In this document: positions 7,763-9,136 of the stretch, piece by piece | How positions within the stretch are numbered: the first letter of the stretch is position 1 | Layout of the letters: every line of letters starts with the position of its first letter | Notes under the pieces: model-generated | Told to the model about the DNA's origin: nothing | The model's database searches: none | What the model saw: only the letters and a program-made list of their open reading frames with translations | From: Aestuariibaculum sp. | GTDB taxonomy: Bacteria; Bacteroidota; Bacteroidia; Flavobacteriales; Flavobacteriaceae | Direction of reading: 5' to 3' | Length of the DNA stretch: 14,384 nt | NCBI GenBank assembly: GCA_047975295.1 | Contig: JBKEDH010000167.1 | Coordinates: 1-14,384 of the forward strand | Made by a program: the position numbers and the translations under genes

Positions 7763-9136
7763 ATGAACATTACAGGAAAAGAACTCATCGCATTAGGTTA
7801 CCGGCAAGGTAAATGGATGAAAAAGGCTTTAATACACATAAACGAAAATAACTTACAGGACGAGGCATTGCTTCAATATTTAGAGCAGTTTAAATTACCC
7901 GAACTATTGGCTTTACATAAAGCACCCGTACCATTTTCAATAAACATAAAAGCAAAAAACGAATTAGAACAGGAAAATATAAATACGGTTGTGCGTTCCA
8001 TGCAAACACTAATGAAAACTCCAACCTTGGTTACCGGTGCCATTATGCCCGATGCCTGCCCAACAGGATCCAATGGTACTATTCCTGTAGGAGGCGTTGC
8101 CGTAGCTAAAAATGCCATCCATCCAGGTATGCACAGTGCCGATATTTGTTGTTCGGTTATGCTAACCGATCTAGGTAAGACCAACCCTAAAGACGTATTA
8201 GATGCTGCCCATACCAATACCCATTTTGGTCCCGGAGGCCGTGACCGCAATGCCCAATACCGTTTTCCTAACGAATTACTTAAAGCTTTTAAGGATAATA
8301 CATTGTTAAACGACAACGAACATATAAAAATAGCACGTTCGCATTTAGGAACTCAAGGCGATGGTAATCACTTTTTGTTTGTAGGCACTTCCAAAAAATC
8401 TGGAAATACCATGTTGGTAACCCACCATGGTTCAAGAGGTCCGGGAGCCAAACTATTTAAAAAAGGTATGAAAATAGCCGAACGCTTTAGAAAAGATCTA
8501 TCACCGGAAACCCTAAAACAAAACGCTTGGATTCCTTTCGATACCGAAGAAGGACAAAGTTATTGGAATGCCTTACAGGTTATACGCCAATGGACCAAAG
8601 CCAACCACGAGGTTATCCATAATGCTGTGGCACAATCTCTAAAAATTAACATAGAAGACCGTTACTGGAACGAACATAATTTTGTTTTTAAAGATGGTGA
8701 CTTGTTTTACCATGCCAAAGGAGCAACACCTTTGGATGCCAAGTTTATGCCCGATATAACAGGCCCAAGATTGATACCTCTAAACATGAGCGAACCTGTA
8801 TTGATTGTTGAAGGGGCAACAACACAAACCAATCTGGGCTTTGCTCCTCATGGAGCCGGCAGAAATATAAGCCGCACACAGCACAGAAACAGTAAAACGG
8901 GAAGTATTATGCAAATTTTTAAAGAGGAAACAAAAGGATTGGACGTTCGGTTTTTTTCTAAAGAAATCGATATTACCGAGCTACCAAGTGCTTATAAAAA
9001 CGCCCAATCGGTCAGGGAGCAAATGGACGAATTTGGTCTGGGAACCGTTTTAGACGAGGTTATGCCTTATGGTTGTATTATGGCCGGAGACTGGTTAAAA
9101 AATGCACCTTGGAAAAAGAAATACAAAAAGTTTTAA
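7763..9136 (+). CDS. rtcB: RtcB-family 3'-phosphate/5'-hydroxyl RNA ligase, divergent subfamily with N-terminal extension
   Basis: 457 aa. Motifs are collinear with canonical RtcB: IMPDACPTG (canonical MPDxHxG), SADICCSVM (GVDIGCGM), [13 protein letters not shown] (GTLGxGNHFIE), [12 protein letters not shown] (HSGSRGxG), EHNFV (HHNY), [11 protein letters not shown] (SHGAGR, the His-GMP site), and a C-terminal YGCIMAGD. About 75 extra N-terminal residues ([21 protein letters not shown]). Confidence 0.88.

What the first reader, a model, noticed from the sequence alone, without database searches (positions are those of the whole stretch)
7763..9136. RtcB with an altered first metal-site motif and an extra N-terminal domain
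All ligase motifs are collinear with canonical RtcB, including the guanylylated His motif HGAGR and the NHF and HxGSRGxG motifs. However, the conserved MPDxH motif reads MPDAC (His replaced by Cys) and GVDIGCGM reads SADICCSVM. About 75 N-terminal residues precede the catalytic core. The segment [21 protein letters not shown] resembles the G-x-D/E-L-x-x-L-G-x-x-x-G motif I associate with the C-terminal RNA-binding region of CCA-adding or poly(A) polymerase-type nucleotidyltransferases. That would suit recognition of tRNA-shaped RNAs. No archease gene is adjacent.
Basis: partly seen in the sequence, partly recalled or inferred. Interest (0 to 1): 0.5.

Follow-up and report, generated by a model that had tools for sequence, protein, structure and literature searches.

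The report
RtcB ligase with CCA-enzyme tail domain
This gene encodes an intact RNA-repair ligase (RtcB) from a large, biochemically unstudied subfamily that carries a small extra N-terminal module related to the tRNA-anchoring tail of CCA-adding enzymes and two extra cysteines beside an otherwise canonical metal site; it sits in an RNA-repair operon of a kind already predicted in the literature.

Summary

- MPDxH is not a metal-ligand motif. Published structures give the ligands as Cys98/His234/His329 and Asp95/Cys98/His203 plus nucleophile His404. Their counterparts here (C130, H221, H305, D127, H203, H363) are invariant or nearly so in 69 diverse relatives, so the metal site is canonical.
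- MPDAC and D[IV]CCS are real clade signatures. Position 99 is Cys in 63 of 69 relatives and His in 6, never anything else.
- The N-terminal claim is supported. Residues 1-45 form three helices. Their profile matches the C-terminal tail of class II CCA-adding enzymes (T. maritima, E 2.5e-5; hhalign 96% to a CCA-type nucleotidyltransferase encoded next to this RtcB in Maribacter). Fold searches on the isolated domain were uninformative.

The subfamily is large, with more than 6000 database proteins across Bacteroidota, alphaproteobacterial plasmids and phages. It does not track specifically with SPFH/WYL: of 80 Bacteroidota loci, 65 have WYL and 14 have Band-7, while Rhizobium uses RtcR-Ro60-YrlA.

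The window's WYL / tRNA-like RNA / Band-7 / RtcB layout is the Band-7/b7a-tRNA system of Burroughs & Aravind (2016). Modest interest.

The parts
7763..9136 (+). RtcB-family 3'-phosphate/5'-OH RNA ligase gene, 457 aa (MPDAC/DxCCS subfamily)
   Evidence: ORF. Pfam RtcB 6.4e-38. AF2 pLDDT 95.7. Foldseek to 1uc2/4dwr E 1e-25, TM 0.68-0.70.
7763..7897 (+). N-terminal three-helix module (aa 1-45) related to the tail of class II CCA-adding enzymes
   Evidence: Helices 5-10, 17-28, 33-43. Profile vs PDB: 3h37 residues 377-421 at E 2.5e-5. PF13735 hit in 19 of 56 members. hhalign 96.2% to the tail of a co-located nucleotidyltransferase.
8045..8059 (+). MPDAC (aa 95-99). D97 is invariant. C99 replaces the His of canonical MPDxH.
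   Evidence: Position 99 is C in 63 and H in 6 of 69 relatives. C in 100 and H in 7 of 109 representatives that carry the motif.
8135..8161 (+). SADICCSVM (aa 125-133). D127 and C130 are the counterparts of PhoRtcB metal ligands Asp95 and Cys98. C129 is an extra Cys.
   Evidence: phmmer alignment to PhoRtcB 'YDINCGV'. D127 and C130 are invariant. Ligand identities from PMC9745838.
8357..8374 (+). GDGNHF (aa 199-204). N202 and H203 are the counterparts of PhoRtcB Asn202 and His203 (M2 ligand).
   Evidence: Alignment. Invariant.
8423..8446 (+). HHGSRGPG (aa 221-228). H221 is the counterpart of His234 (M1 ligand). R225 is the counterpart of Arg238 (contact to the 5'-OH strand).
   Evidence: Alignment. 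Near-invariant. Role of Arg238 from PMC8051266.
8672..8683 (+). EHNF (aa 304-307). H305 is assigned as the counterpart of His329 (M1 ligand).
   Evidence: Invariant H305 and N306. The assignment rests on motif order. The printed alignment starts just after this segment.
8849..8863 (+). HGAGR (aa 363-367). H363 is the counterpart of the guanylylated His404.
   Evidence: Alignment to PhoRtcB 'HGAGR'. Invariant.
6513..7613 (+). SPFH/Band-7 protein gene immediately upstream, same strand
   Evidence: Pfam Band_7 6.2e-26. An orthologue is present in 14 of 80 related loci.
5799..5870 (+). tRNA-like RNA (tRNA-Pro-like, not called by ARAGORN)
   Evidence: Rfam tRNA 51.9 bits. ARAGORN finds none. 93-95% identical to tRNA-Pro genes of arrays in L001 and L033.
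6005..6115 (+). Composite tRNA-like / YrlA-like RNA upstream of Band-7
   Evidence: Rfam YrlA 47.1 bits (below GA 69) and tRNA 33.9 bits. It lies in a noncoding block conserved at 75-80% in Band-7-bearing loci.
4588..5598 (-). Divergently transcribed WYL/WCX-domain regulator
   Evidence: Pfam WYL 7.7e-8 and WCX 8.5e-10. An orthologue is present in 65 of 80 related Bacteroidota loci.

Best explanation
The gene encodes a catalytically competent GTP/Mn-dependent 3'-phosphate/5'-OH RNA ligase. It belongs to a distinct and widespread RtcB subfamily found in Bacteroidota, Alphaproteobacteria and phages.

The catalytic apparatus is canonical: a binuclear metal site (D127, C130, H203, H221, H305), N202, R225, and the guanylylated H363. 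Two things set the subfamily apart.
1. A roughly 45-aa N-terminal three-helix module is homologous to the tail of class II CCA-adding enzymes. In those enzymes the tail anchors the tRNA elbow (T-loop/D-loop).
2. Two extra cysteines, C99 in MPDAC and C129 in DICCS, occur in active-site motifs.

Inferred mechanism: a divergent WYL-domain regulator switches on the operon. The ligase then reseals RNAs broken by metal-independent ribonucleases, most likely tRNAs cut in the anticodon loop. The N-terminal module would dock the tRNA elbow so that the broken ends reach the active site. The Band-7 protein and the tRNA-like RNAs would be accessory scaffold or cofactor parts, as proposed for the Band-7/b7a-tRNA/RtcB system.

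Shown here: family membership, fold, conservation of ligands, homology of the N-terminal module, and gene neighbourhoods. Inferred: ligase activity, tRNA as substrate, elbow binding, and the role of the cysteines.
For: RtcB identity and fold. The ligand and nucleophile counterparts are invariant (H221: 68 of 69) in 69 relatives spanning 30-85% identity. Ligand identities come from PMC9745838 and PMC10944509.

Homology of the N-terminal module to CCA-enzyme tails. The tail domain of class II enzymes contacts the tRNA elbow (PMC3925840).

tRNA-related neighbourhoods of this RtcB type (unless stated):
- tRNA-like RNAs in the window
- arrays of up to 20 tRNA genes in 16 of 80 loci
- a CCA-type nucleotidyltransferase with an HD domain directly downstream in 3 loci
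- an RtcB2-PrfH pair in 21 loci
- RtcR-Ro60-YrlA in Rhizobium
- stand-alone copies in large phages

The Band-7/b7a-tRNA/RtcB system is described in the literature (Burroughs & Aravind 2016, as cited in bioRxiv 10.1101/312249).
Against: - No biochemistry exists for any member that I could find.
- The N-terminal profile also gave spurious hits of similar E-value to a designed helical bundle and to DotG repeats.
- A similar N-terminal motif occurs on the PrfH-linked RtcB paralogue. By analogy with the E. coli PrfH/RtcB2 system (from memory, not checked here), that paralogue is expected to repair rRNA, so the module may be a general RNA-binding device rather than tRNA-specific.
- Most related loci have neither Band-7 nor tRNA-like RNA.
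Confidence: 0.7

Rival explanations
1. The N-terminal CCA-tail-like module does not recognise substrates. Instead it binds the operon-encoded tRNA-like or YrlA-like RNA. That RNA would then tether RtcB to the Band-7 (or Ro60) scaffold, as Y RNA tethers PNPase to Ro60.
For: The same RtcB subfamily sits beside tRNA-like RNA plus Band-7 in the window and beside YrlA (92 bits) plus Ro60 in Rhizobium. The YrlA effector domain folds like tRNA, and a role for tRNA-like RNAs in ligation has been proposed (bioRxiv 10.1101/312249).
Against: Only 14 of 80 Bacteroidota loci have Band-7 nearby. Phage copies stand alone. The module is nonetheless conserved in all of them. From memory, the E. coli-type RtcB of the Salmonella rsr-yrlBA-rtcBA operon lacks this module.
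Confidence: 0.2
2. The extra cysteines (C99, C129) next to bridging ligand C130 change the chemistry of the site. They could add or alter a metal site, shift the preference away from Mn, or form a redox switch that inactivates the ligase under oxidative stress.
For: Position 99 is only ever Cys or His, and both can bind metal. C99 and C129 tend to co-occur: 53 of 69 relatives have both, and 4 of the 6 His-type sequences lack C129. The canonical Cys98 is known to be sensitive to oxidation (PMC8051266).
Against: No published structure lists the MPDxH histidine as a ligand. The C99/C129 association is confounded by phylogeny, since the His-type sequences are mostly the PrfH-linked paralogue. I could not read model coordinates to measure distances.
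Confidence: 0.2
3. The similarity of the N-terminal segment to CCA-enzyme tails is convergent or a chance match. The segment would be a generic helical cap or a protein-protein interaction element.
For: Fold searches gave only generic three-helix matches. All Pfam hits are below the gathering score (17.9 against 27 for the window protein). The profile also picks up designed helical proteins.
Against: Four independent CCA enzymes match at the same place in their C-terminal tails. PF13735 is by far the most frequent family hit, with 19 members against 4 for the next. hhalign gives 96.2%, E 2.5e-9, over 42 columns, including the shared I-[TS]-G-K-D-L-I-x-L-G-x-K-P-x-x-x-F-G motif.
Confidence: 0.1
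4. The enzyme mainly caps 3'-phosphate ends (RNA or DNA 3'pp5'G) rather than sealing breaks, as reported for some RtcB paralogues.
For: RtcB paralogues differ in their capping and ligation activities (Myxococcus paralogues, cited in PMC10630183). The subfamily is divergent: NCBIfam equivalog scores are far below cut-off.
Against: N202 and R225, the counterparts of residues tied to the 5'-OH strand-joining step (PMC8051266), are conserved. The neighbourhoods are rich in tRNA and RNA-repair genes.
Confidence: 0.08

Closest known systems
Canonical RtcB (E. coli RtcB, P. horikoshii RtcB, human RTCB)
   Same: Same fold (TM 0.65-0.70). Same motif order. Counterparts of every published metal ligand, the Asn, the Arg and the guanylylated His are present.
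   Different: About 23% identity. Scores far below the NCBIfam equivalog cut-offs (81.5 against 407). Has an extra N-terminal three-helix module, MPDAC instead of MPDxH, and D[IV]CCS instead of DI[GN]CG.
Band-7 / b7a-tRNA / RtcB RNA-repair system (Burroughs & Aravind 2016, Nucleic Acids Res; known to me through bioRxiv 10.1101/312249)
   Same: A Band-7 gene and a tRNA-like RNA lie directly upstream of RtcB on the same strand.
   Different: I could not read the original paper. I therefore cannot say whether it describes the N-terminal module, the Cys signature or the WYL regulator. In 80 related Bacteroidota loci Band-7 is an optional accessory (14 of 80), while WYL is the constant partner (65 of 80).
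Rsr(Ro60)-YrlA-RtcB operon under RtcR
   Same: In Rhizobium and Bosea plasmids the same MPDAC/N-module RtcB (about 52% identity) follows RtcR, and in Rhizobium also Ro60 and YrlA.
   Different: The window has a WYL regulator, Band-7 and tRNA-like RNAs in place of RtcR, Ro60 and YrlA. No RtcA is present.
PrfH-coupled RtcB (RtcB2; NCBIfam TIGR03073)
   Same: Present as a second paralogue 1-5 kb away in 21 of 80 related loci. It also starts with a GKDLIKLGF-type N-terminal motif.
   Different: That paralogue keeps MPDAH and DIGCR and is followed by an RF-1-domain (PrfH-like) gene. The window protein scores 56 against a cut-off of 271.8 on TIGR03073, and the window has no prfH.
Tail domain of class II CCA-adding enzymes / Pfam PF13735 (tRNA_NucTran2_2)
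   Same: Shared motif and profile-level similarity. In CCA, CC and A-adding enzymes the tail anchors the tRNA elbow (PMC3925840).
   Different: Here it is at the N-terminus of a ligase, is only about 45 aa long, scores below the Pfam gathering score, and lacks fold-search confirmation.

Membership tests
RtcB (Pfam PF01139) | Profile score above the curated cut-off | tested here: met
   131.5 bits against 27, though aligned only over aa 184-439. The N-terminal half aligns weakly (aa 83-138, 20.9 bits).
RtcB (Pfam PF01139) | RtcB fold | tested here: met
   AF2 model pLDDT 95.7. Foldseek to 1uc2, 4dwr, 8odo and 2epg gives E 1e-19 to 1e-25, TM 0.60-0.70.
RtcB (Pfam PF01139) | Binuclear metal ligands (Pho Asp95, Cys98, His203, His234, His329) and His404 nucleophile | tested here: met
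   D127, C130, H203, H305 and H363 are invariant, and H221 is conserved in 68 of 69. Ligand list.
RtcB (Pfam PF01139) | GTP- and Mn-dependent sealing of 3'-P/2',3'>P and 5'-OH ends | not testable with these tools
   Needs enzyme assays.
E. coli-type RtcB (NCBIfam NF007153) and PrfH-coupled RtcB (TIGR03073) | Score above the equivalog cut-off | tested here: not met
   81.5 against 407, and 56.3 against 271.8. The protein belongs to neither equivalog.
Band-7/b7a-tRNA/RtcB system | Band-7 gene adjacent to RtcB | tested here: met
   Band_7 6.2e-26 at 6513-7613(+), 150 nt upstream of RtcB.
Band-7/b7a-tRNA/RtcB system | tRNA-like non-coding RNA next to the Band-7 gene | tested here: met
   Rfam tRNA hits at 5799-5870 (51.9 bits) and 6061-6115 (33.9 bits), and YrlA-like at 6005-6107. 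The noncoding block is conserved in Band-7-bearing loci. Expression was not tested.
Band-7/b7a-tRNA/RtcB system | Association conserved across relatives of this RtcB | tested here: inconclusive
   Band-7 lies within 6 kb in 14 of 80 Bacteroidota loci, and directly upstream in 9. It is absent from the alphaproteobacterial and phage contexts.
Class II CCA-adding enzyme tail (PF13735) | Pfam score above the gathering cut-off | tested here: not met
   17.9 bits against 27 for the window protein. 19 of 56 relatives hit at E < 0.1, best 6.4e-5.
Class II CCA-adding enzyme tail (PF13735) | Profile-level homology to bona fide CCA-type enzyme tails | tested here: met
   hmmsearch against PDB hits 3h37 residues 377-421 at E 2.5e-5, and 4x4w, 1ou5 and 1miv tails at E 0.2-0.55. 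hhalign to the L056/L060/L062 nucleotidyltransferase tails gives 96.2%, E 2.5e-9.
Class II CCA-adding enzyme tail (PF13735) | Same fold as the tail domain | tested here: inconclusive
Class II CCA-adding enzyme tail (PF13735) | Binds the tRNA elbow | not testable with these tools
   Needs binding assays or a complex structure.
Archease-dependent RtcB | Archease gene present | tested here: not met
   No archease family among the Pfam hits of the 10 window ORFs scanned. Related loci were not specifically scanned for archease.

The most novel reading that the evidence does not exclude
The CCA-tail-like module lets this RtcB subfamily grip the T-loop/elbow of the operon-encoded tRNA-like or YrlA RNAs. 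Those RNAs would then assemble a ligase-scaffold particle with Band-7 or Ro60. In parallel, the Cys-rich site (C99, C129, C130) would give the enzyme a different metal requirement or a redox switch. Together this would supply the missing physical link between bacterial Y-like/tRNA-like RNAs and RNA ligation.
Probability: 0.15. Interest if true: 0.7.

Novelty: new variant of a known kind. Interest (0 to 1): 0.35.

Why it matters
RtcB is the universal 3'-phosphate RNA ligase, yet its bacterial substrates and the way it recognises RNA remain largely unknown. A large subfamily carries a module derived from the tRNA-elbow anchor of CCA-adding enzymes. Its genes lie beside tRNA-like RNAs, tRNA arrays, CCA-type nucleotidyltransferases and PrfH rescue modules. 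This gives a concrete, testable handle on substrate choice, namely tRNA repair. It may also bear on why Y-like and tRNA-like RNAs accompany RtcB. The strict Cys/His alternation at a position no structure paper I could read lists as a ligand hints at an unrecognised functional residue in all RtcBs. None of this changes the basic picture: the gene is a normal RtcB in a predicted RNA-repair operon.

Tried and rejected
- I could not obtain Burroughs & Aravind 2016, Englert et al. 2012 or Maughan & Shuman 2015. I therefore could not check whether the N-terminal module was described before, or what the Asp and His of MPDxH do. Neither residue appears as Asp65 or His67 in any RtcB paper of the searchable library, nor under those names or D65/H67 in the RtcB review.
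- Model coordinates are not exposed to the script sandbox, so distances from C99 and C129 to the metal site could not be measured.
- Rejected, 'altered metal site': all ligands are conserved.
- Rejected, 'MPDAC tracks with SPFH/WYL': alphaproteobacterial and phage contexts differ.
- Rejected, pseudogene or inactive RtcB: the family is under strong conservation, with 76-85% identity across Flavobacteriaceae genera.
- The top PDB hits of the N-terminal profile, a designed helical bundle (6egc) and DotG repeats, were judged spurious. They match only the helical half or only short repeats.
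Full report
**What is there**

The window (36% G+C) holds an ORF at 7763-9136(+) of 457 codons.
- [21 protein letters not shown], aa 3-23
- MPDAC, aa 95-99
- SADICCSVM, aa 125-133
- GDGNHF, aa 199-204
- HHGSRGPG, aa 221-228
- EHNF, aa 304-307
- HGAGR, aa 363-367

Pfam calls the protein RtcB (131.5 bits, cut-off 27), but aligns only aa 184-439. The NCBIfam RtcB models align from aa 76-77 onward. 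Their scores fall far below the equivalog cut-offs: 81.5 against 407 for the E. coli type, and 56 against 272 for the PrfH-coupled type. An AlphaFold2 model built on 69 diverse relatives is very confident (pLDDT 95.7, pTM 0.91). It matches P. horikoshii, T. thermophilus and human RtcB structures with E 1e-19 to 1e-25 and TM 0.60-0.70. This is a genuine but divergent RtcB.

**The metal site**

Published structures define the RtcB metal ligands. M1 is bound by His234, His329 and Cys98. M2 is bound by Cys98, Asp95 and His203. His404 is the guanylylated nucleophile and Asn202 contacts the 5'-OH (PMC9745838; PMC8051266). In human RTCB the five metal-binding residues are D119, C122, H227, H259 and H353 (PMC10944509). 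None of them lies in the MPDxH motif.

The phmmer alignment to PhoRtcB and a 69-sequence alignment give these counterparts: D127, C130, N202, H203, H221, H305, H363 and R367. All are invariant except H221, which is conserved in 68 of 69. The metal site is therefore not altered, and the label 'first metal-site motif' for MPDxH is unsupported.

What is real is a clade signature.
- Position 99 is Cys in 63 and His in 6 of the 69 relatives, and never anything else.
- Among 150 cluster representatives, 100 have Cys and 7 have His at that spot.
- All 120 close relatives have Cys.
- The residue before the bridging Cys is also Cys in 55 of 69, giving D[IV]CCS.
- Most His-type sequences look like the PrfH-linked paralogue, which has MPDAH and DIGCR.

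The strict Cys/His alternation suggests a chemically meaningful role for this position. I could neither find that role in the papers available to me nor measure distances in the model.

**The N-terminal module**

The model shows three helices (aa 5-10, 17-28, 33-43) followed by a linker. The RtcB core starts at about aa 58 with strand 58-60, helix 67-83 and strand 89-99, which ends in MPDAC. The extra module is thus about 45 residues, not 75.

Its motif, I-T-G-K-D-L-I-x-x-G-x-x-P-G-x-x-F, is conserved across the whole family down to about 30% identity.
- The window's segment alone hits Pfam PF13735 (tRNA nucleotidyltransferase domain 2) at E 0.003-0.01, below threshold.
- A profile of 56 N-termini hits the C-terminal tail of the T. 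maritima CCA-adding enzyme (3h37, residues 377-421) at E 2.5e-5.
- The same profile hits the tails of the human mitochondrial and Bacillus CCA enzymes more weakly.
- 19 of the 56 members hit PF13735, best E 6.4e-5. The next family is hit by only 4 members.
- In three Maribacter loci the gene directly downstream of this RtcB type encodes a PolyA_pol-head + RNA-binding + HD nucleotidyltransferase. Its own C-terminal tail matches the RtcB N-terminal profile (E 2e-5).
- hhalign gives 96.2% probability, E 2.5e-9, over 42 columns for that comparison.

**How common it is and where it occurs**

The word-indexed search found more than 6000 relatives. The best 120 are 76-100% identical, and those that carry a source name are from Flavobacteriaceae, annotated 'RtcB family protein'. 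The exhaustive search of 50%-identity representatives found 182 clusters at E < 1e-30.

Members of about 52% identity with the same MPDAC, DICCS and N-terminal motif occur elsewhere:
- on Rhizobium, Bosea and Shinella plasmids
- in Tenacibaculum, Cellulophaga, Rhizobium and Bradyrhizobium phages

Among the 80 best Bacteroidota genome loci:
- 65 have an orthologue of the window's WYL regulator, and in 36 it is immediately upstream and divergent
- 14 have the Band-7 gene
- 21 have a second RtcB followed by an RF-1-domain (PrfH-like) gene and a TPR gene
- 16 have arrays of 3-20 tRNA genes
- 3 have the CCA-type nucleotidyltransferase
- 6 have a DUF6331 ORF

In Rhizobium phaseoli the same RtcB type follows RtcR, a Ro60 (TROVE/vWA) gene and a YrlA RNA that scores 92 bits against a gathering score of 69. 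In Bosea it follows RtcR directly. In phages it stands alone.

The MPDAC clade is therefore coherent. It tracks with RNA-repair contexts in general, not with SPFH/WYL in particular.

**The window's operon**

The WYL/WCX regulator lies at 4588-5598(-). It is followed on the + strand by:
- a tRNA-like RNA at 5799-5870 (Rfam tRNA 51.9 bits, not called by ARAGORN)
- a composite YrlA-like/tRNA-like RNA at 6005-6115
- the Band-7 gene at 6513-7613
- RtcB at 7763-9136

A convergent PEP carboxylase gene closes the locus. This is the arrangement that Burroughs & Aravind (2016) described as RtcB + Band-7 + 'b7a-tRNA', according to bioRxiv 10.1101/312249. I could not read the original paper. None of the 10 ORFs scanned against Pfam is an archease.

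**Most likely mechanism**

The protein is most likely an active GTP/Mn-dependent 3'-P/5'-OH ligase. The WYL regulator would induce it, and it would reseal RNAs cut by metal-independent ribonucleases, most plausibly tRNAs. The N-terminal CCA-tail-like module would act as an elbow anchor. Band-7 and the tRNA-like RNAs would be optional accessory parts.

The rivals are:
- the module binds the operon's own tRNA-like or Y-like RNA, to tether RtcB to Band-7 or Ro60
- the extra cysteines alter metal or redox behaviour
- the N-terminal similarity is convergent
- the enzyme is mainly a 3'-end capping enzyme

The PrfH-linked paralogue also carries a similar N-terminal motif. This cautions against a strictly tRNA-specific reading.

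**Verdict**

The gene is a normal member of a very large, uncharacterised RtcB subfamily in a previously predicted type of RNA-repair operon. The domain link to CCA-enzyme tails and the Cys/His-only position are useful, testable details rather than a new kind of system. Interest 0.35.

Noticed in passing
L001 1531-3360; L027 9320-10836; also L005, L008, L013, L031, L033, L059 and others: In 16 of 80 related Bacteroidota loci, arrays of 3-20 tRNA genes lie within a few kb of this RtcB. The largest cover nearly every amino acid (the L027 hits in Rfam are all on the RtcB strand). This resembles the cyanobacterial long tRNA arrays that neighbour and are co-induced with rtcB under translational stress (PMC8421152).
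   Followed up: partly
window 5799-5870 and about 5890-6230: The first tRNA-like element is 93-95% identical to the tRNA-Pro genes of the arrays in L001 and L033, yet ARAGORN does not call it. It may be a remnant of such an array. The next roughly 340 nt of noncoding DNA, which includes the YrlA-like/tRNA-like element, is 75-80% conserved in all Band-7-bearing loci.
   Followed up: partly
L016 9082-11721; L029 10039-12912; L058 9415-12035: 21 of 80 loci carry a second RtcB (MPDAH, DIGCR; Pfam 5e-84). It is followed by an RF-1-domain PrfH-like gene and a TPR gene. This is a PrfH/RtcB2-type module, which by analogy with E. coli (from memory) would rescue and repair ribosomes. This paralogue also begins with a GKDLIKLGF motif that weakly matches the N-terminal profile.
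   Followed up: partly
L056 7387-8772; L062 7387-8772; L060 7382-8779: A class II nucleotidyltransferase (PolyA_pol head + RNA-binding domain + HD domain) is encoded immediately downstream of the MPDAC RtcB in three Maribacter loci. This suggests a ligase plus CCA-repair/end-healing pair.
   Followed up: partly
L081 673-7407 (Rhizobium phaseoli plasmid pRphaN161c): The locus reads: T4 Rnl1-like RNA ligase, divergent RtcR, Ro60 (TROVE/vWA), YrlA RNA (92 bits), then the MPDAC-type RtcB. Two different RNA ligase families sit in one locus.
   Followed up: partly
L029 5688-5996; protein P0113; L083 4710-6371 (Tenacibaculum phage PTm5): A DUF6331 ORF sits just upstream of this RtcB in 6 of 80 loci and is fused to it in P0113 (569 aa). 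The phage PTm5 RtcB has a 97-aa N-terminal extension ahead of the ITG motif, which I did not identify.
   Followed up: no
window 7614-7762: The 150-nt Band-7/RtcB spacer contains a G+C-rich nested hairpin at about 7664-7718 (MFE -19.2 kcal/mol for 7656-7725). It also has a terminator-like stem on the minus strand at 7617-7636. Only L001 has a similar sequence (81% over 54 nt, opposite strand).
   Followed up: partly
L003 5740-5811 (-): An Rfam Flavo-1 RNA hit (54 bits, gathering score 42) lies between Band-7 and RtcB on the opposite strand in Psychroserpens. No such hit occurs in the window.
   Followed up: no
window 12194-14029 (+) and 3268-4029 (+): ORFs of 611 aa and 253 aa have no Pfam family. 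The 253-aa ORF follows an ABC ATPase gene and may be its permease.
   Followed up: no
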